A stretch of 64,000 bases of DNA. Origin: an uncultured Candidatus Saccharibacteria bacterium (GTDB lineage Bacteria; Patescibacteriota; Minisyncoccia; UBA6257; 2-01-FULL-56-20). Both the position numbers and the translations under genes were made by a program. The notes under the pieces were generated by a model. That model had not been told where the DNA came from and did no database searches. It saw nothing but the letters and a program-made list of their open reading frames with translations. Below are positions 378 through 61,223 of this stretch, piece after piece. The first letter of the stretch is position 1. Each line of letters starts with the position of its first letter. The DNA lies in NCBI GenBank assembly GCA_964387675.1, contig CAYLWL010000001.1, positions 74,819 through 138,818 of the forward strand, given 5' to 3'.

Positions 378-1913
378 ATGACAAAGAAAACCGTAATTCT
401 CGTGGTGCTCGACGGCTGGGGCATCGGACGCGAAGACGAATCGAACCCGATCCACGTCGCAAACCCCAAGAGCTTTTCGTGGCTCAAGGAAAACTTTCCG
501 ATGACGAGCTTGCGGGCCTCGGGCATCGCCATCGGACTCCCGTGGGGAGAAGTCGGCAACAGCGAGGTGGGGCACCTGACCCTTGGCGCCGGAAAAGTGC
601 TCTATCAGTACTATCCGAAAATCATGATGGCCATTCAGGACAAAACGTTTTTCGGCAACCCCGCGCTCAAGGGCGCATTCGAGCACGCCAAAAAGAATAA
701 TTCCGCGGTGAACCTTGTGGGGCTTTTGAGCAAAGGCAACGTGCATGCCTCGCTCGACCATGTGCGCGCGCTCCTCGAGATGGCTACACGCGAGGGGGTT
801 TCGAACGTGAAACTCCATCTCTTCGCGGACGGAAAAGACAGCCCCCCGAAGACCGTGCAAAGTTTTCTTAAAGAAATCCCCCAAGACAAACTCGCGACGC
901 TCGTCGGCCGCTATTACGCCATGGATCGCAACCAGAACTGGCGGCTCACGGAAACCTGCTACCAAAATATGACAGGGGGAAGCGGCACGGTTGTCGCCGA
1001 TCCGAATCCCTCCATCGAAGCGACTTTTAAGAAAGGACTCACGGAAGAATACCTGCCGCCGCTCCGTTTCGGCGAAGGGAAAACAATCGCGGAGAACGAC
1101 GCCGTCATCTTCTTCAATTTCCGGGAAGACAGCATGCGGCAGCTTGCGGAGGCCTTCGTCGTGAAGAGCTTCGACAAGTTCGCAGTTAAAAACTTTCAGA
1201 ATCTCCATATCGCAACCATGACCAACTACGAAGAAAAATTTACCGTGCCGGTCGCCTTCGCGGCGGATACGGTGGAGCGACCCCTCGGCCAACTATTGAG
1301 CGATGCGGGGAAAAATCAGATGCGGCTCGCGGAGACATACAAATACGCCCACATCACGTACTTCTTCAACGGCTATCGGGAACAGCCGTTCAAAAACGAA
1401 TACCGAGCCCTGATTCCTTCTCTCTCCACGCCGCGCCCGGAAGAACACCCCGAGATGATGGCCGGGCCGATCACCGACCGGCTCATCGACGCGATTCAGG
1501 AACTTGCTTTCGATTTCATTCTCGTAAACTATTCGAACGGCGACACGATGGCACACACCTCGAGCTACGACGCTGGCCTCAAGGCAGTCCAGATCATCGA
1601 CCGAGAAATGGAAAAGTTGCTCAAGGTTGCCGTAAGCGACAAGATCGCGCTTCTCGTCACCTCCGACCACGGCAACGTGGAAGAAATGATAAATCCCGCG
1701 ACGGCACTCCCCGAGAGCCAACACGACGCAAACCCGGTTCCATTTTATCTTGTCGCTCCGGAATTCAGAGGCCGAAAGTTCGCGAATTGGAAAAACCTGG
1801 CCAACGAGACCATGGGCTCCCTCGCCGACGTCGCCCCGACCGTTCTCGAACTCATGGGAATAAAAAAGCCGGAAGAAATGACCGGCAGAAGTTTGCTTGA
1901 GGGGCTGATGTAG
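378..1913 (+). CDS. gpmI: 2,3-bisphosphoglycerate-independent phosphoglycerate mutase
   Basis: N-terminus 'MTKKTVILVVLDGWGIG' and full-length similarity to the iPGM family. ATG at 378 is preferred over the GTG at 339 of the track ORF. Confidence 0.85.
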   Translation: MTKKTVILVVLDGWGIGREDESNPIHVANPKSFSWLKENFPMTSLRASGIAIGLPWGEVGNSEVGHLTLGAGKVLYQYYPKIMMAIQDKTFFGNPALKGAFEHAKKNNSAVNLVGLLSKGNVHASLDHVRALLEMATREGVSNVKLHLFADGKDSPPKTVQSFLKEIPQDKLATLVGRYYAMDRNQNWRLTETCYQNMTGGSGTVVADPNPSIEATFKKGLTEEYLPPLRFGEGKTIAENDAVIFFNFREDSMRQLAEAFVVKSFDKFAVKNFQNLHIATMTNYEEKFTVPVAFAADTVERPLGQLLSDAGKNQMRLAETYKYAHITYFFNGYREQPFKNEYRALIPSLSTPRPEEHPEMMAGPITDRLIDAIQELAFDFILVNYSNGDTMAHTSSYDAGLKAVQIIDREMEKLLKVAVSDKIALLVTSDHGNVEEMINPATALPESQHDANPVPFYLVAPEFRGRKFANWKNLANETMGSLADVAPTVLELMGIKKPEEMTGRSLLEGLM

Positions 1914-5560: not shown

Positions 5561-5677
5561 GGAGTATTCGCGAATAACTCGAATCTTTAAATTAATAATG
5601 CGAATCATTAGGGTTGTTTAAGTCCGTGTATTCGCGTTATTGGCGGTTCGTTCATTCGCGTTATTCGCGACTACTCC
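5561..5677. repeat. Family-1 palindromic MITE-like element, copy 2
   Basis: TIRs 'GGAGTATTCGCGAATAAC' and 'GTTATTCGCGACTACTCC'. Its right TIR contains the TAG stop (complement) of the histidine kinase gene. Its left end abuts the holA-like start codon. Confidence 0.7.
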
Positions 5678-6999
5678 ATTGCCACTTCGTGTTTCGGCAC
5701 AAGATTTGGATCCGTGGGCAACGTAAAGTGAAACGCGCTTCCCCTGCCAAGCTCCGACTCCGCCCAAACTCGCCCGCCATGGGCCTGGATGATATTTTTC
5801 GCGATGTAGAGCCCAAGACCGGATCCTTCGGTCTGGGATTTCAAAACATTCTCGGCGCGAAAGAACTTTGTGAAGAGCTTCTCGATATCTTCTTTGGGGA
5901 TGCCAAGCCCCGTGTCGCTCACGGCGATCTCGACGTACGGCCCATCGCTTCGTTGTTCTACTTTCACAACAACCTCTCCGTTTTCAACGTTATAGCGTAC
6001 GGCATTTTCCAAAATATTAACGAGGGCGATAGAGAGCTTCTTCGGATCAATGAGGATTTTTGGCAGGGGAGATTTCGGCCGGTCGAAATACACTTTTATG
6101 CCGCTCTTTCTCGCAAGGGCGGCCACTTGCGCCAACGGCGCGCTCACAAAATCGATGATGTCGGCTTCCTCGAACGCGTATCCAAAACGTCCCTCCTCGA
6201 CCCTGGCGATATCAAGAAGGTCCTCGACGATTCTTTTGAGCTGACGGGCCGAAACAAGGGCGCTCTCCACGATGGTCTTATTCGTATCACCGAACGACTG
6301 GTCTCCCGCCAAAGATTCGATCGCCCAGTTGAGTTCCGTGATCGGAGTGCGAAGCTGGTGTGACGCAATCGTAAGAAACTCTGTTTTTGACTTCATTAAC
6401 GACTCCTCCCGTGTTCTGTTTTTGATGATTTTCATAAAACCGATCTGGGCGCCAGAACTATCGGCAACGATGGAGGTGGAGACCCTGAGTTCCAAAATCG
6501 GGTCCGAGAAAGACAAGTCAACCACTTGGGGATATTGTCCGGGCGTGGAACGATTAATGACCGACGGGGCAAGAGACGGAAAAATCACTTGAGCCAGCAA
6601 TTTGAACGAAGGATCTTCCACGCCTTTGGGCTCCAGACGGCGGCCGGAAACGCTTCCCCTCTCCAGGTGAAAGAGTTTTTCCGCCGCCGGATTAAAAAGA
6701 AGAATCTGGAAGTTGTTATCGTAGACCACGAGCGCGTCCTCCAGGTTCAAAAAAACGCTTTTGAGTTCGTTTTTCTCTATTTTCGTTCCCCGTTCGATCT
6801 TTGCCGCCCGGTAAGCGCCAAAAAAAACCAAAATTCCAAGAACCACAATCAAGCCCGCCTGAACGAAAAACACCCCTCTTGGTGAAGAAATATACGAACT
6901 CGCAAGCAGAGCGACGAGGAAGGCGGCAACAAGCCAAGCGATCCTCAATTCCGGCCACAATATTATTTCTCGTATTTTTCCCACATCCATACTTTTCAT
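5671..6999 (-). CDS. sensor histidine kinase (TM - PAS - HisKA - HATPase_c)
   Basis: H-box 'HQLRTPITELNWAIESL' and ATPase motifs 'GLGLYIAKNIIQAHGGRVWAE'. Start placed at 'MKSMDVGK...' (TM follows); the longer track ORF would overlap the upstream gene by >100 nt. Confidence 0.75.
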   Translation of the reverse strand: MKSMDVGKIREIILWPELRIAWLVAAFLVALLASSYISSPRGVFFVQAGLIVVLGILVFFGAYRAAKIERGTKIEKNELKSVFLNLEDALVVYDNNFQILLFNPAAEKLFHLERGSVSGRRLEPKGVEDPSFKLLAQVIFPSLAPSVINRSTPGQYPQVVDLSFSDPILELRVSTSIVADSSGAQIGFMKIIKNRTREESLMKSKTEFLTIASHQLRTPITELNWAIESLAGDQSFGDTNKTIVESALVSARQLKRIVEDLLDIARVEEGRFGYAFEEADIIDFVSAPLAQVAALARKSGIKVYFDRPKSPLPKILIDPKKLSIALVNILENAVRYNVENGEVVVKVEQRSDGPYVEIAVSDTGLGIPKEDIEKLFTKFFRAENVLKSQTEGSGLGLYIAKNIIQAHGGRVWAESELGRGSAFHFTLPTDPNLVPKHEVAME

Positions 7000-21035: not shown

Positions 21036-21441
21036 ATATATGGGCTTCAAGGATTATCGCCTGGAAATTAAACCGGAGCAGAAGAGAGGAGCAGTTTTTA
21101 TTTATGACAACCCGACTTTGGTGAAAGAAAATTTGCCGACTCTTGTGGACAGCTTGAATCACGTCGTGCAAATGGCGGTGAGAAAAAACGGCGAACAGGC
21201 GATTCTTTTCGACATCAATAATTACCGGCAAGAAAGAGAAAGCTTAATTACCGAACTCGCGAGGGCGGCGGCGAAAAAGGTCTTAATGACCAAAGAGAAA
21301 ATTTCTCTCCCGGCGATGAACTCTTACGAAAGAAGGTTGGTCCACATCGAGCTTTCGGTGCACCCGGAAGTTACGACCGAAAGCGCGGGAATGGGCAGGG
21401 AGAGATGCGTGATCATAAGGCCAATCGAGAGTAATCGCTAA
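20998..21441 (+). CDS. jag: Jag/SpoIIIJ-associated KH-R3H RNA-binding protein
   Basis: R3H motif 'SYERRLVHIELS'. Follows yidC as in rpmH-rnpA-yidC-jag clusters. Its stop lies inside a family-1 element. Confidence 0.7.
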   Translation: MDNPESFVKKIIEYMGFKDYRLEIKPEQKRGAVFIYDNPTLVKENLPTLVDSLNHVVQMAVRKNGEQAILFDINNYRQERESLITELARAAAKKVLMTKEKISLPAMNSYERRLVHIELSVHPEVTTESAGMGRERCVIIRPIESNR

Positions 21442-21518
21442 TCACGCGAATGGCGGCAAATAACGCTAATATGATTCGCGTTATTACCTAGCGATTAGCG
21501 TTATTCGTGATTACTCCC
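21429..21518. repeat. Family-1 palindromic MITE-like element, copy 3
   Basis: TIRs 'GAGTAATCGC...GTGATTACTCCC'. Supplies the TAA stop codons of both convergent genes (jag and 21501..22739). Confidence 0.7.
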
Positions 21519-53296: not shown

Positions 53297-53371
53297 GGGC
53301 GCATAGCTCAATGGCAGAGCACCGAGCTTATACCTCGGCGGTTCTAGGTTCGAATCCTAGTGCGCCCACCA
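53297..53371 (+). tRNA. tRNA-Ile (anticodon UAU)
   Basis: Acceptor GGGCGCA/TGCGCCC, D-arm GCTCAATGGCAGAGC, anticodon stem CCGAG/CTCGG with loop CTTATAC, T-arm CTAGGTTCGAATCCTAG, CCA encoded. Confidence 0.8.
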
Positions 53372-54893
53372 GTATTAAACTTTCAGAAATTTTGCCAATG
53401 GATTTTGCCGCGCGAAGCGCGGAAAGGTATGGAAACACTGGCTCGCCGCGCACGGCGCGGCTCGCCAAGCGCAGGTTCGAGCCAAAGATTTCTTTGGCGG
53501 CAACCTTTTTCTCTTGAAGGTTGCTATCCCTTGCGATTTTGACGAGGTTTGAAGCGACTTTTATCCAGTTTTGGAAGGGTTCGAGCCAATCATTCTGCTT
53601 TTGTTCAATCCGCGTCATTTTCTCGTCCAGCGACTTCTTTTCAGACAACAAGATAGCTTTCTGTTCTCGGTATATTTCTCGCTCAATATCCTGTTCCAAA
53701 TAGCCATCCAGAAGTCGCTGGAGCTTCGTTTGTATCGCGCGGATTTTGATTTGGCTTTCTTGAACAAAAGCAGAAACGGATTGGGCGGATACCGCTTTGT
53801 CTTTTTCTGCCATTGCTAAAAGTTTTTCCGCCCAATCCGCGCGCAAAGAAAATTTTTGAAGCAGAGAGGAAATTTGTTTGTCCAGTTCCTCTTGGCGAAT
53901 ACAGGGTTCGAGACACTTTATTGATTTGTTTTTCTTGGTGCAATGATAGTAAATATAATCGTGGACATTTCCATTTTTCTGCTTCTTAACCCTGTATTCG
54001 CCAGTTATGGACATTCCACAAGTGCCGCACTTCAGTAGCCCGCACAAATGTTGCGGCTCATACTTTGTTTTGTGGTGCGGCCTTCCTCTCTGCTTCAAAA
54101 CTTCCTGAACTTTATCAAAAATTTTCTTTGCGACGATTGGCTCATACTTTCCTTCGTGGAGTTCACCGCTGTATTTGAATAGTCCGGTGTAAAAAGGATT
54201 TGAGAGGATAAAAGTCGCCCTCGTCTTGTGGATTCTCTTTCCACCGCGGGATAGTATCCCGCGGTGCGCCAAAAAGTCCGAAATGTCCTCTAACCGTGAA
54301 TTGCCCTCGGCGTAAAGTTCAAAAGCCCCGCGAATAACTTTTGCTTTCTTCCTATCCACTACCACTGTTTTTGTGCGGCTGTCGTTGATATAGCCGATGG
54401 GCGCGGGGCCGGGATATTCTCCGCGCTTTACTTTTTGGCGCAAACCGCGCTTTGTGTTTTCGGAAAGAGAATCCACATAGTATTTGCTTTGCCCAAATAC
54501 AATGTTCAACATAAATTTTCCTTGCGGCGTATTTTCAAACCACAGCGTTGGAAATTTCAAGCTCGCAAGTTTTTCAGTGTCCAAAAGATAAATGATACGC
54601 CCGCCGTCCACAGAATTGCGCGCCAATCTGTCCGCGTGCCAAGCCAAAATTCCGTTGGCCTCGCCTCGTTCTATCTTGTCCAGCATCTCGTTAAATATCG
54701 GCCTACCCGGAATTTTGGCTGATTGTTTTTCAATAAGGACATCAACGATATTCAAATTTTCTTGTTTTGCAAAGGCGCGCAATTCCGCGATCTGGTCTTC
54801 AATCGAGCGCACTTGTTTATCCTCCACATCGGTGGACTTGCGGGCGTAAAGGAAAAATTTATGTTGTTCCATATTCATAGTTTTATTGGGCAA
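53328..54893 (-). CDS. large serine recombinase (resolvase N-domain plus recombinase domain plus zinc ribbon)
   Basis: 'FLYARKSTDVEDKQVRSIEDQ' catalytic Ser region and 'CGLLKCGTCG' zinc motif. The 3' end reads through IR-A into the tRNA, so the true stop is uncertain. Confidence 0.8.
   Translation of the reverse strand: MPNKTMNMEQHKFFLYARKSTDVEDKQVRSIEDQIAELRAFAKQENLNIVDVLIEKQSAKIPGRPIFNEMLDKIERGEANGILAWHADRLARNSVDGGRIIYLLDTEKLASLKFPTLWFENTPQGKFMLNIVFGQSKYYVDSLSENTKRGLRQKVKRGEYPGPAPIGYINDSRTKTVVVDRKKAKVIRGAFELYAEGNSRLEDISDFLAHRGILSRGGKRIHKTRATFILSNPFYTGLFKYSGELHEGKYEPIVAKKIFDKVQEVLKQRGRPHHKTKYEPQHLCGLLKCGTCGMSITGEYRVKKQKNGNVHDYIYYHCTKKNKSIKCLEPCIRQEELDKQISSLLQKFSLRADWAEKLLAMAEKDKAVSAQSVSAFVQESQIKIRAIQTKLQRLLDGYLEQDIEREIYREQKAILLSEKKSLDEKMTRIEQKQNDWLEPFQNWIKVASNLVKIARDSNLQEKKVAAKEIFGSNLRLASRAVRGEPVFPYLSALRAAKSIGKISESLILVGALGFEPRTAEV
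53368..53480. repeat. IR-A (113 bp), left inverted repeat flanking the recombinase; starts within the tRNA-Ile 3' end
   Basis: Near-perfect reverse complement of 54921-55033. Confidence 0.8.
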
Positions 54894-54920
54894 AGCAAAT
54901 ACTTAAAATCGCAAGGGATT

Positions 54921-55033
54921 TCGAACCTGCGCTTGGCGAGCCGCGCCGTGCGCGGCGAGCCAGTGTTTCCATACCTTTCCGCGCTTCGCGCGGCAAAATC
55001 CATTGGCAAAATTTCTGAAAGTTTAATACTGGT
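54921..55033. repeat. IR-A' (inverted copy of IR-A)
   Basis: Reverse complement of 53368-53480, including 'CACCAGTATTAAAC' derived from the tRNA 3' end. Confidence 0.8.
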
Positions 55034-55182
55034 GCGTTTGTTTGACGAAATCCGAACCTTTTTTGAACAGAACTGACCGCCTCCGCTTCGCTCCAGCGGA
55101 ACGCTCGGGCGCGGCGGAATTCCCCCCTTGAACCCCCCTTCCGCCGCGCCCTCGCAAGAGGCCAGAATTTTTTCGCCGCCAA
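55034..55182. repeat. IR-B (GC-rich ~150 bp), left inverted repeat flanking the cargo genes
   Basis: Near-perfect reverse complement of 56766-56911. Confidence 0.8.
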
Positions 55183-55260
55183 TCCAATTAAGAAATGATT
55201 AAGCATAGTTATACTATAGTATAACCGTTGTCCAACAAAACAACAAGTGATAAACTGTGT

Positions 55261-55476
55261 ATGAAGAATATGCAAGAAATATCAAAGAAATTAGGCGAGA
55301 ACTTGAAAAAGGTTCGCGCCAAGAAAAAATTGTCGCAAGGAGCTTTAGCGCGGCTTTTAGAGGTTGATAAGGGCTATGTAAGCAACATTGAGAGTGGTAA
55401 GAAAAATCCTACCCTTGCGACAATTCAACGATTAGCTGACGCGCTCGGTGTGACGGCTGATGAACTATTGAAATAA
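55261..55476 (+). CDS. XRE-family helix-turn-helix transcriptional regulator
   Basis: 'LSQGALARLLEVDKGYVSNIESGKKNPTLATIQRLADALGV'. AT-rich cargo. Confidence 0.75.
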   Translation: MKNMQEISKKLGENLKKVRAKKKLSQGALARLLEVDKGYVSNIESGKKNPTLATIQRLADALGVTADELLK

Positions 55477-55477
55477 T

Positions 55478-55966
55478 ATGGTTTACTTTCGCGAACAAGA
55501 AAAATTTAGAGCGCGCGCAGAAGAATTATTTTTGAAAGAGCAAAAAAGAATTTTGCGCGTTGTTCCAAAGGCAGATATTCAGCACATCGGAAGCACTGCG
55601 GTTCCCGGCTCTCTAACAAAGGGCGACCTTGATATTCAGGTTAGAGTTAAAGAAAAAGATTTTGATAAAGCGCAAAATGCTCTTTCAAAAATGTATAAAC
55701 CAAATAAAGGAAATCCTTCCACGAAAACGTATGCGAGCTTTAAGGATGACAGTACAAAAATTCCTCTTGGGGTTCAGCTAACAGTTATTGGTTCTAAAGA
55801 GGATAATTTTACGACTTTGAGAGATATTTTGATACGCGATAAAAAACATCTGAAAGAATATAACTCCCTGAAAAAGCGGTACCAAGGAAAATCAATGCAA
55901 GAATACCGAAAAGCTAAAGGAAAGCTTGTTGGAAAAATTTTGAAATCAAAAACCAAGAGAGTATGA
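55478..55966 (+). CDS. GrpB/UPF0157-family nucleotidyltransferase-fold protein
   Basis: 'HIGSTAVPG...KGDLDIQV'. Confidence 0.6.
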   Translation: MVYFREQEKFRARAEELFLKEQKRILRVVPKADIQHIGSTAVPGSLTKGDLDIQVRVKEKDFDKAQNALSKMYKPNKGNPSTKTYASFKDDSTKIPLGVQLTVIGSKEDNFTTLRDILIRDKKHLKEYNSLKKRYQGKSMQEYRKAKGKLVGKILKSKTKRV

Positions 55967-56754
55967 AAAAGGATATTAACCTACGAACAACTTTCAATAA
56001 CGAAGCGGAGCTATATCGTGTAATCAGGCCGCGCTATCCAGAAGAACTTTTTGTCGCACTCGTTAAAAATGCTCAATTGCAAAGCGATGCGAAGTTGTTA
56101 GAAATTGGCCCGGGAACGGGCCAAGCGACAGAACCGCTTGCAAGGCGCGGCTACGACATAACCGCAATTGAGCTTGGTGCCGATCTTGCTGAAGTCGCAC
56201 AAAAAGTTTTGGCAAGGTATGCAAACGTAAAAATAATCACAGGCGCATTTGAGGATGTCGAACTTCAATTAGAATCTTTTGATTTAGTTTATGCGGCAAC
56301 TGCTTTTCACTGGATAAAGCCGGAAGTAAAATTTTTCAAGCCGCATAAACTTTTAAAAAAGGGTGGACACTTAGCAATTATTGGTACAAATCATGTTTCC
56401 GATGAGAAGGGCGACGAATTTTTCTTTGCCTCACAACCTATTTATAAAAAGTACAAACCCGGTGGGAAGCATGACGATAATTTCCGTTTGAAGCGCGCCG
56501 ATGAATTGAAAGCGGACGAAGTAGACGAAAATCTTTTTGCCCCTGTTTTCTTCCACGCTTTCCCGCTCGTTGTACCTTTTTCTGCGAAAGAATACGCTCA
56601 ATTGTTGAATACCTACTCACCAACTATATCAATGGAGCCAGATCAACGAGCGGGATTTTTGGAAGAAATAGAAAAGCTGATCGAAGAAAAATTCGTCGGT
56701 AGTATTCAAAAACACTTCGCGATGACTTTGACGATGGCGAAGAAAAAGAGCTAA
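55963..56754 (+). CDS. class I SAM-dependent methyltransferase
   Basis: Motif I 'LLEIGPGTGQAT', 263 aa. Confidence 0.7.
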   Translation: MKKDINLRTTFNNEAELYRVIRPRYPEELFVALVKNAQLQSDAKLLEIGPGTGQATEPLARRGYDITAIELGADLAEVAQKVLARYANVKIITGAFEDVELQLESFDLVYAATAFHWIKPEVKFFKPHKLLKKGGHLAIIGTNHVSDEKGDEFFFASQPIYKKYKPGGKHDDNFRLKRADELKADEVDENLFAPVFFHAFPLVVPFSAKEYAQLLNTYSPTISMEPDQRAGFLEEIEKLIEEKFVGSIQKHFAMTLTMAKKKS

Positions 56755-56765
56755 TATATTTCTGT

Positions 56766-56911
56766 TTGGCGGCGAAAAAATTCTGGCCTCCCGCGAGGGC
56801 GCGGCGGAAGGGGGGTTCAAGGGGGGAATTCCGCCGCGCCCGAGCGTTCCGCTGGAGCGAAGCGGAGGCGGTCAGTTCTGTTCAAAAAAGGTTCGGATTT
56901 CGTCAAACAAA
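56766..56911. repeat. IR-B' (inverted copy of IR-B)
   Basis: Reverse complement of 55034-55182 with a few substitutions. It is followed by A2 (56912-57080), a divergent (about 70% identical) copy of IR-A. Confidence 0.8.
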
Positions 56912-57270
56912 CGCACCAAAACCATACTTTTCGGTTTTTTGGAAGCCAAAATGCGGGACGCGCGAAGCGCGTCCCAAGGATTCCCGTCGAATTTCCCAAA
57001 CGAATTCAGAATTTTTGGCGCGCTGGCGCGCACCTGTCTTTCGCCGAGGAGGAGGTTCGAGCCAAAGATTTCTTTGGCTTTGACCTTTTTTGCAAGCAGG
57101 TCATCATCAGAAGCAATTTTGTCCAATGATTGTGCGTCTTTTATCCATTCTTTCATCGGTTCGAGCCAATCATTCTGCTTGTGTGAAAAAGAGGTCATTT
57201 CTTCTTGGAGAGACTTCTTTTCAGATAACAACTTTGCTTTTTGATTTCGATAATCTTGCTCGTCAATCAC
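56872..57270 (-). pseudogene. truncated second copy of the serine recombinase (C-terminal ~130 codons only)
   Basis: 'YRNQKAKLLSEKKSL...KQNDWLEP...AKEIFGSNL' aligns with the C-terminus of 53328..54893. The N-terminal portion is replaced by the IS200-like element. Confidence 0.65.
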
Positions 57271-57274
57271 TTGG

Positions 57275-57855
57275 TCTAACCTCGCGGGAGCTCCCCGCCT
57301 GTAAAGGCGGGGGTGTGAGCAGGGTCCCGCATCTTCCCGTACAATGAAAATGAATGAAACTACACAAACAAGCCCACGCGGTGTACAAAACCCAGTACCA
57401 TATTGTCTGGGTGACCAGATTCCGCCGAGCTATTTTGAACGAAGGGGTTCAGGCCTACCTCAAGCTGAAGCTCGCGGAGGCGAGGAAATACTACCCCGAC
57501 TGGTACTACGAGGAAATCGGCGTGGCAAGGGATCATCTCCGTCTGCATATGGTCATCCCGCCGAAATACAGCGCGAGCTTTGTCATCGAGACGCTCAAGA
57601 AAAATACGAGCAGGCACCTCCGCGAGCGGTTTCCATTCCTCGACGAGGTGTATTGGGATCGCGGCGGAATCTGGTCCAAGGGATACTTCGTCTCAACCGT
57701 GGGAGCGAACGAAGCGGTTATCAAACGCTACGTTGCCATGCAAGGTCGGGAAGATGCGGGACAAGCGAAGCTTGAATTCCGCTAAGTACCACGGCTGTAA
57801 AGCCATGGGTATCTATTGCACGAGGCCAGTTTCGCTGGCCTCGTGCTGATCTGCC
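57275..57855 (+). mobile_element. IS200/IS605-family insertion sequence (tnpA only)
   Basis: LE hairpin 'CCCCGCCTGTAAAGGCGGGGG' at about 57295, RE hairpin 'CACGAGGCCAGTTTCGCTGGCCTCGTG' at about 57813. Boundaries are approximate. Confidence 0.6.
57354..57785 (+). CDS. tnpA: IS200/IS605-family Y1 (HUH) transposase TnpA
   Basis: 'YHIVWVTRFRR', 'HLRLHMVIPP', 'GYFVSTVG' and 'KRYVAMQ'. Confidence 0.85.
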   Translation: MKLHKQAHAVYKTQYHIVWVTRFRRAILNEGVQAYLKLKLAEARKYYPDWYYEEIGVARDHLRLHMVIPPKYSASFVIETLKKNTSRHLRERFPFLDEVYWDRGGIWSKGYFVSTVGANEAVIKRYVAMQGREDAGQAKLEFR

Positions 57856-57918: not shown

Positions 57919-58572
57919 TTAGTCCGTAAGCGAGGCTTTAGTGAGGATAACTAAATATTTCTCAAAATAACCCCCGTCTTCTTCGGCATCAAATTTTTTA
58001 TGTTCTACCCTTAAGCCAAATGAAGCCGCGGCTTCAAAGAATGCTTTATATTTCCTCAAAAATTCTTCCTCCGACTCTGCTTTAAAAGGATATAGCTTTG
58101 CCTCACCGCCCACTTTCAAGACACGGGCAATTTCCGATAGCCAGTTCAATACTTGTTGTTTATGTTCTTGCCTTAATTTCTGATGCATATCCTGCTTTTC
58201 TTCCGCCCATTCTAAATAACTTGGTTCTGAAAATCGAGAAACAGAATATAATCCGAAAATTCTGTCAAATGTTTTATCTTTGAATGGTAATGCTTCGGCT
58301 TCACCAGCAACAGATTTTCTTTGCCAATCTGGCAGACGAGTAACTTTTTGCCTCATTTTGGTTTTATAGTACTCTGGATTTAGAGATACAACATTAGTAT
58401 TTTGATCAGCCAATTCTCTCGATAGGTTTTCATTTTCCCCTGAACCCAAATCGAGAACTTTTTTTCCAGCTAACTCGCCGCGTTTAAAATCCAAAGCCTT
58501 CTCGTAATCTGAAAGGCTCCTGCCTGTAGGTATGGTGGTTTTTTCGGTTGTGCCCTCCCAATATTTTTCCAT
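57919..58572 (-). CDS. class I SAM-dependent methyltransferase
   Basis: Motif I 'VLDLGSGEN' with downstream 'FDRIF'. Confidence 0.6.
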   Translation of the reverse strand: MEKYWEGTTEKTTIPTGRSLSDYEKALDFKRGELAGKKVLDLGSGENENLSRELADQNTNVVSLNPEYYKTKMRQKVTRLPDWQRKSVAGEAEALPFKDKTFDRIFGLYSVSRFSEPSYLEWAEEKQDMHQKLRQEHKQQVLNWLSEIARVLKVGGEAKLYPFKAESEEEFLRKYKAFFEAAASFGLRVEHKKFDAEEDGGYFEKYLVILTKASLTD

Positions 58573-58789
58573 ATTCTAAGGCGTTTATGATTTATTAAAT
58601 TTTAGCGGTTTTTATATCGAAAAGAAAGGGCCCGCGAAATCTCGAATTGAGATAGTCACGGGCCCAGATGCCAGATGAGAGAATAGCCGAACTTTACGGA
58701 ACTCTGGCGAGTTCCGCGAACTCGTTGCAAGCCCGCGAACCATTAGCACCACCTCGGCGTAGTTCCAATCTTGCTGATATACGGGTTAT

Positions 58790-58818
58790 TGACGCCCGTT
58801 CGTTTTTGAGATACGATA
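58790..58818 (+). promoter_or_regulatory. sigma70-like promoter (TTGACG-N17-TACGAT) inside direct repeat DR-L
   Basis: A second similar promoter (TTGACT-N18-TATGCT) lies at 59504-59533 inside DR-R. Confidence 0.45.
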
Positions 58819-58863
58819 AACGTAATTAAAGAGTCGCTTATTCCTAAAAGTTCATTCGGATCA
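58790..58863. repeat. DR-L: ~75-bp direct repeat (promoter plus leader 'TTAAAGAGTCRCTTATTCCTAAAA') upstream of the 2-gene cassette
   Basis: About 75% identical to 59504-59575. Confidence 0.6.
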
Positions 58864-59067
58864 ATGAAAACTAACCTCAACAATATTGATTTAGGGAAAA
58901 TAGCGAAAGAGCTCCGACGTTTTGAGGAACAGTGGGTTGCTATTTCCGAAAACAACGAAATCGTGGCGAGCGGGAATACCTATGGAGAAACCGTGGATAG
59001 GGTGAAGAATCCCGACGAGGTGATTCTTTTTAAGGTGCCTGCTTTGGACTATTCTCTTGCTCCATAA
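58864..59067 (+). CDS. small DUF5678-like protein (67 aa)
   Basis: '...QWVAISENNEIVASGNTYGETVDRV...VILFKVP'. The family assignment is tentative. Confidence 0.4.
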   Translation: MKTNLNNIDLGKIAKELRRFEEQWVAISENNEIVASGNTYGETVDRVKNPDEVILFKVPALDYSLAP

Positions 59068-59072
59068 AGGGG

Positions 59073-59492
59073 ATGAAGTTTCGGTATCAGAAGTTTATTA
59101 TCGGAGGCCATGATCCCCACAAGCCGCTTATCGCGAGGCCGTATATTCCAGTTTCTCTTTTGGGAAAGAATAGAAAGACCCGTAGCCCCTATTACGCCTT
59201 GCTCGACTCTGGTGCGGACCGGATCATTTTCCCTGCGGACTTGGCAGTTGAAATTGGTATCAACGATATCACCACGGGGAATCTTGAGCCAACCGTCGGT
59301 ATCGCAAACCAAAAAGCAGATGTATTTTATCACCACCTTGCCCTTCAGGTAATGGGAGATCAAAGAATTTTGCCTTCAGAAGTCGGGTTTTCCAAGGAGA
59401 TATATCTGCCGATACTAGGCCGATCTTTCTTTGCGCATTTTAAGGCAGTAATCTTTACCGAGGCAAAAGAAGAGGTTGAACTGAAAAACTGA
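59073..59492 (+). CDS. retropepsin-like aspartic protease
   Basis: Active-site motif 'LLDSGADRIIFP' (D-S/T-G-A). 139 aa, starts 6 nt after the preceding gene. Confidence 0.6.
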   Translation: MKFRYQKFIIGGHDPHKPLIARPYIPVSLLGKNRKTRSPYYALLDSGADRIIFPADLAVEIGINDITTGNLEPTVGIANQKADVFYHHLALQVMGDQRILPSEVGFSKEIYLPILGRSFFAHFKAVIFTEAKEEVELKN

Positions 59493-59503
59493 ACAGTTCG
59501 ATA

Positions 59504-59575
59504 TTTGACTCTCCCGTTGGTTTCGGTATATGCTTACGACATCGTTAAAGAGTCACTTATTCCTAAAAAACTCAT
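59504..59575. repeat. DR-R (second copy of the promoter/leader repeat)
   Basis: See DR-L. Confidence 0.6.
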
Positions 59576-59668
59576 GGGAGCAATCGCTAATAACGCGAAT
59601 AAAAGCAAATAACGCAGATAATAATTCGCGTTATTAATTAAAAGATTCGAGTTATTCGCGACTACTCC
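59576..59668. repeat. Family-1 palindromic MITE-like element, copy 4
   Basis: TIRs 'GGGAGCAATCGCTAATAACGCGAAT' and 'GATTCGAGTTATTCGCGACTACTCC'. Confidence 0.7.
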
Positions 59669-59699
59669 AAATTTATGAAGAATTTAGGTTTTAAATTAA

Positions 59700-61223
59700 A
59701 TGATCGAAACGGCACTATACATCATTGCCGGCCTTTTGGTCGGTTTTACGCTAGGGTATCTCGTTCGCAGGTTCGTTGCGATAAAACAACTCGGATCGAT
59801 CGAGGATAAAATCCGGAGGTCGGCCGAAGAAGCGGAAACCCGGGCGAAAGAAATCATCATCGAGGCGAAGGAAAAAGGTGCCTCGCTTTTGGTTGAGGCG
59901 AAGAACGAAGAAAGGCAAAGACGGAAAGAGATAGAGTCGCTTGAATCGCGCCTGATGGGCCGCGAGGACGCGCTCGACAAAAAACTCGCCTCCGTGAGCG
60001 CCGAAGAAAAAGACGTCCGCGCCAAAGCCGACGCCTTGAAGCAGAGAGAGGAGGAATTCAACGCGCTGGAAACAGAGATGCAGTCGAAACTCGAATCCGT
60101 AGGCCGCCTTACCGCGAGCGAGGCCCGGGAAGAATTGTTCAAGCAGATCAAAGAAGCAAGAAATCAGGACCTCACGAGATTAATAGAGAAAATCGACAAA
60201 GAGAACAGGGAAGAGGTCGAGAAGAAGTCGATGGAGATCATCACAACCGCCCTCCAGCGATATTCCCGATCACATGTTTCGGAGATCACGACTACCGCTT
60301 TCCATCTTGCCGATGAAGAATTGAAGGGCAAGATTATCGGCCGCGAAGGGAGAAATATCAGGGCTCTCGAGAAAGCGACCGGAGTCGAGTTCGTGATCGA
60401 CGAGACGCCGGACACGATTATCATTTCTTCGTTTGATCCGTACCGGCGGGAAATAGCGCGGATGGCGCTTGATAAGCTGATCAAAGACGGCCGCATCCAG
60501 CCGGCGAAGGTCGAGGAAAAAGTGGAAGAGGCGAAGTCGGAGCTTACGGAGCGCACGAGAGAGATCGGGGCCGCCGCCGCGGAAGAAGTCGGCGTGTTCG
60601 ACTTGCCGAAAGAGATTTTACAGCTCGTGGGGAGGTTGCATTTTCGAACGAGTTTCGGCCAAAATGTGTTGACCCATTCGATCGAGATGGCGCATATCGC
60701 GACTATGATGGCCGGCGAACTTGGTTTGAATGTTGACATCGCGAAGCGCGGGGCGTTACTCCACGACATCGGCAAGGCCATCGACCACGAGGTGGAAGGG
60801 ACGCACGTGGAGCTGGGCCGCAAGATTCTGAAGAAATACGGGATCAACGAGAAAGTGATCGAAGCGATGCAATCCCACCACGAGGACTACCCCTACGCCA
60901 TTCCGGAAGCGTACGTCGTGACCGCCGCGGACATCTTGTCCGCCGCGCGCCCGGGAGCTCGCCGCGGGACTGTGGAAAACTATATTAAGCGTTTGGCCGA
61001 CCTCGAGCGCATCGCCACCGACTTTCCGGGCGTCAAAAACGCTTATGCCATATCGGCCGGAAGGGAACTCCGGGTGTTCGTGATCCCCGAGAAGATCGAC
61101 GACTTCCGGGCGCTCGAGCTTGCCCGCGAGATTGCCAACAGGATCCAATCCGAGTTAAAATACCCGGGAGAGATTAAAGTCAATGTCATCCGGGAAATGA
61201 GGGCGGTCGAGTACGCCCGGTAA
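59700..61223 (+). CDS. rny: ribonuclease Y
   Basis: N-terminal TM, coiled coil, KH domain ('IIGREGRNIRALE') and HD domain ('HSIEMAHIA...LLHDIGKA'). Confidence 0.9.
   Translation: MIETALYIIAGLLVGFTLGYLVRRFVAIKQLGSIEDKIRRSAEEAETRAKEIIIEAKEKGASLLVEAKNEERQRRKEIESLESRLMGREDALDKKLASVSAEEKDVRAKADALKQREEEFNALETEMQSKLESVGRLTASEAREELFKQIKEARNQDLTRLIEKIDKENREEVEKKSMEIITTALQRYSRSHVSEITTTAFHLADEELKGKIIGREGRNIRALEKATGVEFVIDETPDTIIISSFDPYRREIARMALDKLIKDGRIQPAKVEEKVEEAKSELTERTREIGAAAAEEVGVFDLPKEILQLVGRLHFRTSFGQNVLTHSIEMAHIATMMAGELGLNVDIAKRGALLHDIGKAIDHEVEGTHVELGRKILKKYGINEKVIEAMQSHHEDYPYAIPEAYVVTAADILSAARPGARRGTVENYIKRLADLERIATDFPGVKNAYAISAGRELRVFVIPEKIDDFRALELAREIANRIQSELKYPGEIKVNVIREMRAVEYAR

What the first reader, a model, noticed from the sequence alone, without database searches (positions are those of the whole stretch)
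58790..59575. Two-gene cassette (DUF5678-like small protein plus retropepsin-like aspartic protease) bracketed by ~75-bp promoter-bearing direct repeats
DR-L (58790-58863) and DR-R (59504-59575) are ~75% identical. Each carries a sigma70-like promoter and the leader motif TTAAAGAGTCRCTTATTCCTAAAA. Between them a 67-aa protein and a 139-aa protease with the retroviral-type DSGA active site are translationally coupled (6-nt spacing). This configuration looks like a duplicated promoter created by insertion of a small mobile or selfish module upstream of rny. Retropepsin-like proteases paired with small partners are poorly characterised in bacteria and could be a toxin/antitoxin- or defence-like pair.
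Basis: partly seen in the sequence, partly recalled or inferred. Interest (0 to 1): 0.6.

Follow-up and report, generated by a model that had tools for sequence, protein, structure and literature searches.

The report
Mobile protease pair inside rny leader
A horizontally mobile, uncharacterised gene pair (a small DUF5678 protein and an HIV-protease-like enzyme) sits directly in front of the RNase Y gene of a Liptonbacteria genome. It carries a second copy of the first ~30 bases of a conserved, previously undescribed RNase Y leader, so it is probably expressed and controlled together with RNase Y.

Summary
The repeat is real but shorter than claimed. A 24-nt core (58826-58849 and 59545-59568) is 23/24 identical, with 0 matches expected by chance. 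The flanks are only marginally similar.

The core is not a generic promoter feature. It is the 5' end of a conserved rny (RNase Y) leader found in relatives:
- a promoter-proximal box, AAAGAGTCA;
- the strand TTCCTAAARAAYTCA, which pairs with TGAAGAATTTAGGRA 25 nt before the rny ATG.

None of 80 related genomes, and none of 16 metagenomic rny leaders, has the cassette there. DR-R is therefore the native leader and DR-L is a copy placed in front of the cassette.

The two genes are confirmed. One is DUF5678 (Pfam E=1e-10). The other has a retropepsin fold (AF2 pLDDT 92.7; top PDB hits are APRc and HIV protease; DSGA and ILGR motifs).

The pair is adjacent in 10 unrelated genomic contexts across several phyla. 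Elsewhere it has its own promoter and no flanking repeats.

Its function is unknown. My working model is that the small protein is a partner or inhibitor of the protease, acting through its invariant disordered C-terminal tail. A toxin-antitoxin or defence role is possible but unsupported.

Interest is moderate.

The parts
58789..58817 (+). Promoter-like site in front of the cassette (TTGACG, 17 nt, TACGAT); the upstream part of DR-L
   Evidence: By consensus only; no expression data.
58826..58854 (+). DR-L: a copy of the 5' end of the rny leader. It holds the box AAAGAGTCG, the species-specific spacer CTTA and the strand TTCCTAAAAGTTCA. The 24-nt core is 58826-58849.
   Evidence: It is 23/24 identical to 59545-59568. 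The spacer is shared only within this genome.
58864..59067 (+). DUF5678 small protein, 67 aa, with a conserved C-terminal tail KVPALDYSLAP
58891..58898 (+). TTTAGGGA within codons 9-12 of the DUF5678 gene, complementary to the DR-L strand TTCCTAAA. It could form a P1-like helix enclosing the start codon. This may be chance.
   Evidence: The minimum-free-energy fold contains the pairing, but z=-0.49. This codon choice is unique to the window among 8 cassettes.
59073..59492 (+). Stand-alone retropepsin-like aspartic protease, 139 aa. Motifs D45-S-G-A-D and L115-G-R. No signal peptide or transmembrane segment is evident.
59505..59534 (+). rny promoter-like site (TTGACT, 18 nt, TATGCT). It begins 13 nt after the protease stop codon, so there is no room for a terminator.
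   Evidence: Promoter-like sites are also visible at the equivalent position upstream of rny in relatives.
59545..59574 (+). DR-R: the native 5' end of the rny leader. It holds the box AAAGAGTCA, the spacer CTTA and the P1 5' strand TTCCTAAAAAACTCA (59560-59574).
59576..59668 (+). MITE-like hairpin (GGGAGCAATCGC...GCGACTACTCC) inserted in the loop closed by P1
   Evidence: (perfect 13-nt arms). Other copies lie at 5561-5678, 21430-21517 and about 2346-2402.
59676..59688 (+). P1 3' strand TGAAGAATTTAGG. The conserved ATGAAGAATTTAGG box starts exactly 25 nt before the rny ATG and overlaps the probable ribosome-binding site.
59700..61223 (+). rny (RNase Y: N-terminal, KH and HD domains)

Best explanation
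**What is shown**

The window comes from a Candidatus Liptonbacteria genome. RNase Y genes in this clade carry a conserved 5' leader with three parts:
- a promoter;
- the box AAAGAGUCA at or near the 5' end of the transcript;
- the strand UUCCUAAARAAYUCA. It pairs with UGAAGAAUUUAGGRA, which lies just upstream of the start codon and overlaps the likely ribosome-binding site. The resulting helix (P1) closes a loop of variable content.

In this lineage a two-gene module sits immediately upstream of that leader. It encodes a DUF5678 protein and a stand-alone retropepsin-like aspartic protease. The module is preceded by a second promoter-like site and by a copy of the first ~29 nt of the leader (box, species-specific spacer and P1 5' strand). 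The module itself is horizontally mobile: it occurs in many unrelated neighbourhoods in several phyla, and there it has its own short-leader promoter and no flanking repeats.

**What is inferred**
1. The cassette is transcribed from an rny-type promoter and leader. With no terminator before the rny promoter, transcription reads through into rny, so rny has tandem promoters and the cassette is co-expressed with RNase Y.
2. The rny leader is an autoregulatory or translational control element. P1 would hide the ribosome-binding site, and the AU-rich 5' box containing GA is a plausible RNase Y entry site, as in Bacillus subtilis rny. The copied 5' end would then place the cassette under the same control.
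3. The protease acts as a cytoplasmic homodimer. DUF5678 is its dedicated partner and docks through its invariant, disordered C-terminal tail KVP(P/S)(L/F)xxS(L/Y/F)AP, either as an inhibitor or as a substrate supplied in trans. That would give a toxin-antitoxin-like or stress-responsive pair.

**Confidence by layer**
- Anatomy and insertion history: about 0.8.
- Co-regulation through the copied leader: about 0.4.
- Partner/inhibitor model for DUF5678: about 0.3.
For: **The repeat**
- The core occurs twice, with 0 matches expected by chance.
- The spacer CTTA between the box and the P1 strand is identical in the two copies. In other species this spacer varies from 3 to 33 nt in length and also in sequence. 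That points to paralogy rather than convergence.

**The motif is specific to rny**
- AAAGAGTCA (1 mismatch or fewer) occurs in 37 of 85 unique rny upstream regions, against 3.1 expected.
- 35 of 89 unique rny upstream regions carry both P1 boxes, with a near-constant distance of 25 nt to the ATG in most of them.
- 16 of 25 hits in the metagenome-wide scan are promoter-proximal rny leaders. The other 9 lack a promoter or a pairing partner.
- AAAGAGTC is not next to a promoter-like site anywhere else in the window.

**The P1 helix**
- 92.4% of cells are paired, and 3 pairs show compensatory changes. No shuffle out of 500 reached the observed covariation score, and all slid registers score worse.
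- RNAalifold predicts the same helix independently.
- The window leader folds at -40.3 kcal/mol, z=-4.2.
- No Rfam family matches.

**The insertion**
- No cassette is found within the up-to-4-kb flanks retrieved around rny in 80 related species.
- In most of the close relatives examined rny sits next to gpmI with a single leader.
- The cassette has lower GC (about 46%) than rny (53-58%).
- All contigs encoding the identical RNase Y carry the cassette.

**The pair**
- DUF5678 lies next to the protease in 10 distinct contexts.
- The two proteins' identities track each other: 70/72, 64/73, 63/64 and 55/55 %.

**The protease**
- Invariant DSG, G76, GF105-106 and LG115-116, with R117 nearly invariant.
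- AF2 mean pLDDT 92.7.
- Foldseek probability 1.00 to APRc (5c9f) and to HIV, SIV and HTLV proteases.
- 48 of 53 family members hit PF13650.
- 362 cluster representatives at E<=1e-10, nearly all 135-147 aa and stand-alone.

**The DUF5678 tail**
- K57 91%, V58 100%, P59 85%, P67 89% across 100 homologues.
- Mean pLDDT is about 60 for residues 61-67.

**Precedent**
- B. subtilis RNase Y autoregulates through cleavages in the first 50 nt of its own 5' UTR (PMC10303841).
- RNase Y prefers a GA dinucleotide in AU-rich, unstructured RNA with structure downstream (PMC11780869).
Against: - There are no transcript data. Both promoters are consensus matches only, and the scan is not enriched over shuffles.
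- Outside the 24-nt core, homology between the repeats is weak. 'Promoter duplication' is therefore not demonstrated, and which copy is the original cannot be resolved. DR-R has the consensus GTCA and AAAAAAYTCA; DR-L has the more consensus-like AATT before the box.
- P1 is mostly conserved in sequence, so covariation support is modest.
- The DR-L leader shows no significant fold of its own (z=-0.49).
- No DUF5678-protease fusion proteins are evident: the listed representatives are almost all about 135-147 aa.
- In two contexts the two genes are convergent, which does not fit an obligate co-translated operon.
- No complex model could be run.
Confidence: 0.55

Rival explanations
1. The 24-nt repeat is a recombination scar with no regulatory meaning. 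It would be either the identical core of a site-specific integration (attL/attR) or an unusually long target duplication. On this view a small element targeted the conserved rny leader, much as integrative elements target tRNA genes.
For: - A sharp 23/24 core sits between flanks that are near-random. That is the classic look of an att core.
- The region is an integration hot spot. It holds tRNA-Ile followed by a large serine recombinase with nested repeats, and an IS200-like TnpA. A MITE-like element sits inside the same leader.
- Ancestral synteny is broken here.
Against: - The segment between the repeats contains only the two ORFs and no recombinase.
- No third copy of the core lies near the recombinase.
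- Eight other cassette copies have no flanking repeats and carry their own promoter. The cassette therefore does not behave as an element with defined ends.
- Both copies lie the same distance downstream of a promoter-like site, which a plain scar does not predict.
Confidence: 0.2
2. The pair is a bona fide type II toxin-antitoxin or abortive-infection defence module. The protease is the toxin or effector, and DUF5678 is the labile antitoxin and transcriptional autoregulator.
For: - Two small genes are tightly linked, usually with a 4-nt overlap.
- The distribution is patchy across Patescibacteria, Rokubacteria and Acidobacteria, in variable neighbourhoods, sometimes next to recombinase, GIY-YIG, MazE-like or methyltransferase genes.
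- 31 of 53 family members hit component B of the PADLOC candidate PDC-M08 (best E=4.7e-6) and 5 hit PDC-M52B. PDC systems are untested candidates found embedded in defence systems.
- An inverted repeat, TCCTAGCCGCTAGGA, overlaps the promoter in L001.
Against: - No hit to any validated system.
- DUF5678 matches no PADLOC model.
- DUF5678 has no ribbon-helix-helix, AbrB, HTH or Phd-like fold.
- The genes are convergent in L125-L128.
- No link to phages.
- No toxicity data.
Confidence: 0.25
3. The two copies are independent binding sites (operators or RNA sites) for one regulator that controls both rny and the cassette. They would have arisen by convergence rather than by duplication, and the cassette would be an old resident of this locus.
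For: - Both copies keep the two conserved boxes and similar spacing from a promoter-like site.
- Conservation of the core, in contrast to the flanks, implies selection or gene conversion.
Against: - The spacer between the boxes is non-conserved and species-specific, yet it is identical in both copies. Convergence would not produce that.
- The motif was found only upstream of rny in an unbiased metagenome scan.
- The cassette is absent from this locus in all relatives sampled.
Confidence: 0.05

Closest known systems
APRc (RC1339) of Rickettsia conorii, and retroviral proteases (clan AA, family A2-like)
   Same: - Single-lobe retropepsin fold. It is the best Foldseek hit: 5c9f, E=7e-6, probability 1.00, TM 0.65-0.68.
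- A DSG active-site motif and a hydrophobic-hydrophobic-Gly (ILG-R) motif.
- Presumably needs to form a homodimer.
   Different: - APRc is membrane-anchored and acts at the cell surface (PMC4140852, listed). The window protein is a 139-aa soluble stand-alone domain.
- Only 14-20% identity.
- It has a dedicated DUF5678 neighbour, which APRc and viral proteases lack.
RimB (RimABK) and the Rlo retropepsin-like peptidases of Pseudomonas
   Same: Bacterial retropepsin-like enzymes with regulatory or stress roles (PMC11957791 and PMC12239564, listed).
   Different: - Different partners (RimA/RimK, or secreted alone).
- No Pfam or NCBIfam hit links the window protein to those families.
- No DUF5678 partner is reported for them. 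The full-text search for DUF5678 found only one, unrelated paper.
Type II toxin-antitoxin modules
   Same: A small two-gene unit, often with a 4-nt overlap. It moves between unrelated loci and phyla and is often found near mobile-element genes.
   Different: - The partner has no antitoxin-type DNA-binding fold.
- Some copies are convergent.
- No family match.
- Toxicity is unknown.
PADLOC phage-defence candidates PDC-M08 and PDC-M52 (component B)
   Same: Distant sequence similarity of the protease family: 31 of 53 and 5 of 53 members, with best E about 4e-6.
   Different: - The window protein itself scores only E about 0.01-0.02.
- DUF5678 does not match any PADLOC model, so no PDC-M08 or PDC-M52 partner was detected.
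- PDC systems are untested candidates.
rny 5'-UTR autoregulation in Bacillus subtilis
   Same: - A leader in front of rny whose first ~50 nt are the control target (PMC10303841).
- A GA dinucleotide in AU-rich, unstructured RNA followed by structure matches the weak RNase Y consensus (PMC11780869).
   Different: - No sequence homology was shown.
- The Patescibacteria leader adds a conserved helix that masks the ribosome-binding region.
- Cleavage has not been demonstrated here.
Integrative elements that duplicate the end of their target gene (for example tRNA-targeting islands)
   Same: Direct repeats of a conserved host sequence bracket the foreign DNA, and the host gene stays intact.
   Different: - The target is an mRNA leader, not a tRNA.
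- The bracketed DNA is only 629 bp of ORFs and has no integrase.
- Other copies of the module have no such repeats.

Membership tests
Retropepsin-like aspartic protease (clan AA) | Catalytic Asp in a D-T/S-G-A motif | tested here: met
   D45-S46-G47 is invariant, and A48 is nearly invariant, across 53 homologues.
Retropepsin-like aspartic protease (clan AA) | Hydrophobic-hydrophobic-Gly motif (HIV I84-I85-G86-R87) | tested here: met
   I114-L115-G116-R117. L115 and G116 are invariant and R117 is nearly invariant.
Retropepsin-like aspartic protease (clan AA) | Score at or above the Pfam gathering threshold for PF13650, PF13975 or PF00077 | tested here: not met
   The window protein scores 15.3-16.6 bits against cut-offs of 20.7-28.2. 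At E<0.01, 48 of 53 relatives hit PF13650 and 46 of 53 hit PF13975.
Retropepsin-like aspartic protease (clan AA) | Single-lobe retropepsin fold | tested here: met
   AF2 pLDDT 92.7, pTM 0.85. 71 PDB chains at E<=0.001; those listed are APRc and retroviral proteases.
Retropepsin-like aspartic protease (clan AA) | Homodimer formation and proteolytic activity | not testable with these tools
   Only monomer prediction is available, and there is no biochemistry.
DUF5678 (PF18929) | Score above the Pfam gathering threshold | tested here: met
   41.7 bits against a cut-off of 23.2. Six partner proteins from other loci score 26.0-39.5 bits.
Type II toxin-antitoxin module | Two adjacent co-directional small genes in one operon | tested here: inconclusive
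   Co-directional in 8 contexts, mostly with a 4-nt overlap (5-nt gap in the window; longer overlaps in L014 and L121). Convergent, tail to tail, in L125/126 and L127/128.
Type II toxin-antitoxin module | Antitoxin with a DNA-binding domain (RHH, AbrB, HTH or Phd) that autoregulates the operon | tested here: not met
Type II toxin-antitoxin module | Toxicity of one partner, neutralised by the other | not testable with these tools
   Needs expression experiments.
Known anti-phage defence system (PADLOC-DB) | Both components match the models of one system | tested here: not met
   Only the protease matches, weakly, and only the candidate components PDC-M08B and PDC-M52B. DUF5678 has no match.
Transposable or integrative element with defined ends | Flanking direct or inverted repeats at other insertions of the same unit | tested here: not met
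   No comparable repeats around 8 other copies. Those copies have their own promoter 12-15 nt from the ATG.
Known RNA family (Rfam 15) | The leader matches a curated covariance model | tested here: not met
   Only chance-level hits at E>0.1 in 58400-59900. Only two tRNAs in the whole window at gathering thresholds.
RNase Y autoregulatory leader (B. subtilis type) | RNase Y cleavage in the first ~50 nt of its own 5' UTR that changes mRNA stability | not testable with these tools
   Only sequence context can be assessed: a GA dinucleotide in an AU-rich 5' box with a hairpin downstream.

The most novel reading that the evidence does not exclude
Two linked novelties are not excluded.

1. Patescibacteria (Liptonbacteria and Paceibacteria) may have an undescribed, conserved cis-regulatory rny leader. 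It would combine a 5' box with a helix that masks the ribosome-binding site, and RNase Y would use it to sense and set its own level.
2. A mobile protease/DUF5678 module may have captured the sensing end of that leader. Its expression would then report the cell's RNA-decay capacity. For example, the protease could be released when RNase Y is titrated or inhibited during phage infection or stress. That would be a new kind of toxin-antitoxin or abortive-infection trigger built on a retropepsin.
Probability: 0.1. Interest if true: 0.75.

Novelty: new variant of a known kind. Interest (0 to 1): 0.45.

Why it matters
- **The gene pair.** Stand-alone bacterial retropepsins are barely studied. This one belongs to a sizeable family (362 cluster representatives at E<=1e-10). 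Its dedicated small partner is conserved across phyla. I found no literature on the partner.
- **The leader.** The repeat led to a conserved rny leader in Candidate Phyla Radiation bacteria that is absent from Rfam. RNase Y is the main decay-initiating nuclease in many bacteria that lack RNase E, and its control in these reduced genomes is unknown.
- **The copy in front of the cassette.** If the leader copy really couples the cassette to RNase Y control, it would be a natural example of a mobile module borrowing a host housekeeping regulatory element.
- **If none of this holds.** The locus is then simply a gene-pair insertion in a rearrangement hot spot.

Tried and rejected
- **The motif as a general promoter or transcription-start feature: rejected.** AAAGAGTC lies next to a promoter-like site only at the two repeat copies in the window.
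- **Repeats as a hallmark of the cassette's mobility: rejected.** There are no flanking repeats in 8 other copies.
- **Deciding which repeat copy is ancestral: inconclusive.** I compared both promoter segments with 34 relatives' rny promoters.
- **An empty-site variant: none found.** All 7 contigs encoding the identical RNase Y appear to carry the cassette (3 places shown, the rest collapsed as similar).
- **The closest cassette relative (P0002, 84% identity).** Its DNA was not retrievable.
- **Phage origin: no support.** No viral contig and no PHROG hit.
- **Sequence search of the PDB.** Nothing for either protein.
- **NCBIfam.** Nothing.
- **First DUF5678 homologue search.** As a single 67-aa query it found only 3 proteins, because of the word index. 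Repeating it with an alignment found 192.
- **DUF5678 fold search.** No significant neighbour.
- **Protease-DUF5678 fusions.** None evident from the lengths of the 150 best representatives.
- **A P1-like fold of the DR-L leader with codons 9-12.** The pairing is present in the minimum-free-energy structure, but the energy is not significant.
- **Literature.** The only paper mentioning DUF5678 is unrelated; nothing on PDC-M08, and nothing relevant on RNase Y leaders in the Candidate Phyla Radiation.
Full report
**1. The observation**

The window matches a Candidatus Liptonbacteria metagenome-assembled genome (GCA_016181795.1).

The motif TTAAAGAGTCRCTTATTCCTAAAA occurs exactly twice, at 58826-58849 and 59545-59568, both on the + strand and 23/24 identical. 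No match appeared in 100 shuffles, even with 3 mismatches allowed.

Each copy lies a few bases downstream of a sigma-70-like hexamer pair: TTGACG-17-TACGAT at 58789-58817 and TTGACT-18-TATGCT at 59505-59534. That scan is not enriched on its own (4 found, 2.2 expected).

Outside the core the two 'repeats' are only weakly alike.
- The upstream flank gives p=0.04 by local alignment and the downstream flank p=0.37.
- The segment from the -35 hexamer to the core gives p=0.014 by global alignment, mainly because of a shared CCCGTTsGTTT.
- The DR-L versus DR-R promoter score (5) is within the range obtained against rny promoters of unrelated species, which reach 8.

The robust repeat is therefore 24 nt, or about 29 nt if the shared TTCA after a 1-nt indel is included. 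It is not 75 bp.

The two ORFs exist as described and are separated by 5 nt (AGGGG). Only 12 nt separate the protease stop codon from the second -35 hexamer, so there is no room for a terminator.

**2. What the repeated sequence is**

I fetched the rny loci of 80 related species and read their upstream regions. A clade-wide leader architecture emerged, with three features.
- A promoter.
- Immediately after the -10 hexamer, the box AAAGAGTCA. With 1 mismatch or fewer it occurs in 37 of 85 unique upstream regions, against 3.1 expected. The looser form ARVGTCA occurs in 55 of 85 against 7.4.
- In 35 of 89 unique upstream regions, two further boxes. One is TTCCTAAARAAYTCA. The other is ATGAAGAATTTAGGRA, which in most of them starts 25 nt before the rny ATG.

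The two boxes are complementary: TTCCTAAA pairs with TTTAGGRA, and TTCA pairs with TGAA.
- On 35 leaders, 92.4% of cells are paired, and 3 pairs show changes on both sides (for example A-U to U-A, and C-G to G-C). No shuffle out of 500 reached the observed covariation score, and all slid registers score much worse.
- RNAalifold, run on full-length short leaders without my structure, predicts the same helix.
- The window's own leader folds at -40.3 kcal/mol, z=-4.2.

In many species the 3' strand reads UAGGGAG about 8 nt before the ATG. It therefore overlaps the likely ribosome-binding site. This last point is my reading of the sequences.

An unbiased scan of JGI metagenomes for 'box, 3-33 nt, 5' strand' returned 25 hits. 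Of these, 16 are promoter-proximal leaders directly in front of rny. The other 9 have no promoter and no 3' partner, and their number is about what chance predicts.

Nowhere else in the window is AAAGAGTC next to a promoter-like site. Rfam has no matching family.

DR-R is therefore the native 5' end of the rny leader.

DR-L shares with it not only the two boxes but also the 4-nt spacer CTTA. In other species that spacer varies from 3 to 33 nt in length and also in sequence. DR-L is thus a paralogous copy, not a convergent site.

**3. The cassette is an insertion**

Within the 4 kb of flank retrieved around rny (less where contigs are short), none of the 80 related loci contains either cassette gene by tblastn.

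In most of the close relatives examined, including the closest (L096/L115, RNase Y 80% identical), rny is divergently adjacent to a gpmI-like gene. In the window that gene's homologue lies 57 kb away, at 378-1910.

One genome (GCA_964361095.1) has the cassette on one contig (L004), next to S1 and gyrA genes. Its intact single-copy rny leader is on another contig (L074).

Cassette GC is about 46%, against 53-58% for rny.

All contigs encoding the identical RNase Y carry the cassette, so no empty-site polymorphism was seen.

**4. The pair is a conserved, mobile module**

The protease has 61 homologues at 38% identity or more in the 5.8-billion-protein collection. A profile search of 1.84 billion representatives finds 362 at E<=1e-10 and 2,140 at E<=0.001. 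Nearly all are stand-alone proteins of about 135-147 aa, and none of the listed lengths suggests a fusion.

I examined ten distinct neighbourhoods: the window, L001, L004, L005, L014, L121, L122-124, L129/130, L125/126 and L127/128.
- They come from Patescibacteria, Rokubacteria and other lineages.
- Their neighbours are unrelated to one another: formate dehydrogenase, MerR/LysR regulators, DNA polymerase III tau, a sigma factor, isocitrate dehydrogenase, Ku and MscL.
- In every case a DUF5678 gene sits beside the protease gene.
- Eight are co-directional, mostly with a 4-nt overlap. Two are convergent, tail to tail.
- Identities of the two proteins track each other: 70/72, 64/73, 63/64 and 55/55 %.

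Elsewhere the pair has its own promoter 12-15 nt from the ATG, for example TTGACA-17-TAGGAT in L001 and L004. There is no rny-like leader and there are no flanking direct repeats.

No copy was found on viral contigs or in PHROGs.

**5. The proteins**

*Protease.*
- D45-S-G, G76, G105-F106 and L115-G116 are invariant in 53 sequences; A48, D49 and R117 are invariant or nearly so.
- AF2 gives pLDDT 92.7 and pTM 0.85.
- Foldseek against the PDB returns APRc of Rickettsia conorii and the HIV, SIV, EIAV, FIV and HTLV proteases at probability 1.00.
- The window sequence is below the Pfam gathering thresholds, but 48 of 53 relatives hit PF13650.
- It is a soluble single-lobe retropepsin and should need to dimerise. 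This follows from established knowledge of clan AA and was not tested here.

*DUF5678.*
- Above threshold in the window protein and in six partner proteins. 192 homologues were found with a profile.
- The AF2 model (pLDDT 88.5) has an alpha-beta-beta-alpha-beta core.
- Its C-terminal tail KVP(P/S)(L/F)xxS(L/Y/F)AP is almost invariant over 100 sequences, yet it is predicted disordered (pLDDT about 60). That is the signature of a docking peptide.

*Defence databases.*
- The window protease has only weak PADLOC hits.
- 31 of 53 relatives hit PDC-M08B and 5 hit PDC-M52B, with best E about 4e-6. These are untested 'guilt-by-embedding' candidates.
- DUF5678 matches no PADLOC model.

*Literature.* Full-text search found only one, unrelated paper that mentions DUF5678. 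The characterised bacterial retropepsins (APRc, RimB, Rlo) have different architectures and partners.

**6. How it most likely works**

*Shown.* The anatomy above; the insertion history; the conservation of the pair; the folds; the specificity of the leader for rny.

*Inferred: transcription.* The cassette is transcribed from the DR-L promoter with an rny-type 5' end. Transcription then runs into rny, which also keeps its own promoter and leader.

*Inferred: the leader as a control element.* P1 would mask the ribosome-binding region. The AU-rich 5' box containing GA, followed by a hairpin, fits the weak RNase Y target consensus (PMC11780869). It also parallels B. subtilis, where RNase Y autoregulates through cuts in the first 50 nt of its own 5' UTR (PMC10303841). 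The 24-nt core is nearly intact while its flanks are almost random. Either it is under selection or gene conversion in both copies, or only this tract was ever duplicated.

*A curiosity.* Only in the window does the DUF5678 gene encode D-L-G-K as GATTTAGGGAAA. This creates UUUAGGGA, which is complementary to the DR-L strand and would enclose the start codon in a P1-like loop. The fold energy is not significant (z=-0.49), so this may be chance.

*Inferred: the proteins.* My working model is a protease dimer controlled by, or acting on, the DUF5678 tail.

**7. Rivals**
- The core may be an att-type or target-duplication scar in an integration hot spot. Nearby lie tRNA-Ile followed by a serine recombinase with nested repeats, an IS200-like TnpA, and a MITE-like element inside the same leader.
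- The pair may be a true toxin-antitoxin or defence module.
- The two copies may be convergent operators. The shared spacer makes this unlikely.

None of these contradicts the anatomy. They differ on function.

**8. Verdict**

The finding comprises:
- a new association, a DUF5678 and retropepsin module;
- a candidate new rny leader element;
- an unusual duplication of the leader's 5' end.

All three are variants of known kinds: a two-gene mobile module, a leader that masks the ribosome-binding site, and insertion with duplication of the target. Interest is 0.45.

Noticed in passing
window 59545-59699; loci L016-L120, upstream of rny: A conserved rny 5' leader in Liptonbacteria and Paceibacteria that is not in Rfam. 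It has the box AAAGAGUCA after the -10 hexamer and a helix (UUCCUAAA/UUUAGGRA plus UUCA/UGAA) whose 3' strand lies a fixed 25 nt before the ATG. The loop is variable and often holds a small ACUAA...UUAGU hairpin. It is a candidate autoregulatory or translational control element.
   Followed up: partly
window 5561-5678, 21430-21517, 59576-59668, about 2346-2402: A dispersed MITE-like hairpin element of about 90-120 nt. Its termini are GGAGTAATCGC...GCGAYTACTCC and it contains internal CGAATAA/TTATTCG repeats. One copy sits inside the rny leader loop. Similar inserts occur in the rny leaders of L016, L032, L053, L073, L079 and L099/L119.
   Followed up: partly
window 53297-57270: tRNA-Ile(TAT) at 53297-53371 is followed directly by a large serine recombinase gene (53328-54893, minus strand). 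Copies of that gene's 3' end recur as nested inverted repeats: 53367-53480 with 54921-55034 (114 nt, 100% complementary) and 55007-55182 with 56766-56941 (176 nt, 93%). The second pair brackets HTH-XRE, GrpB and SAM-methyltransferase genes. This could be an integrative element, an invertible segment, or an assembly artefact.
   Followed up: no
window 57354-57785: An IS200-like Y1 transposase (PF01797, E=3e-24) lies between a recombinase C-terminal fragment and a methyltransferase gene. It might be related to the dispersed hairpin elements, as with REP/RAYT systems. This was not tested.
   Followed up: no
window 378-1910 versus 59700; L016 2006-2943: Synteny is broken at the rny upstream region. 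In most relatives the gpmI-like gene is the divergent neighbour of rny, but in the window it is 57 kb away on the same strand. The block tRNA-Ile / 204-aa gene / tRNA-Gly is inverted relative to L016. Low-GC DNA (39-47%) fills 53.5-58.9 kb.
   Followed up: partly
window 58630-58667: A GC-clamped hairpin, GGGCCCGCGAAATCTCGAATTGAGATAGTCACGGGCCC, lies in the divergent intergenic region between the methyltransferase gene and DR-L. Its function is unknown. A terminator-like hairpin (58781-58799 plus a T-run) also overlaps the DR-L -35 hexamer.
   Followed up: no
L001 3750-3790; L004 3755-3795: The native cassette promoters share TTGACA-17-TAGGAT. In L001 an inverted repeat (TCCTAGCCGCTAGGA) lies between the hexamers and could be an operator.
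   Followed up: no
L125 2501-3194; L127 2501-3156: In distant members the DUF5678 and protease genes are convergent and overlap at their 3' ends by about 10 nt. The gene callers annotated a short + strand ORF there, or the minus-strand gene without a family.
   Followed up: partly
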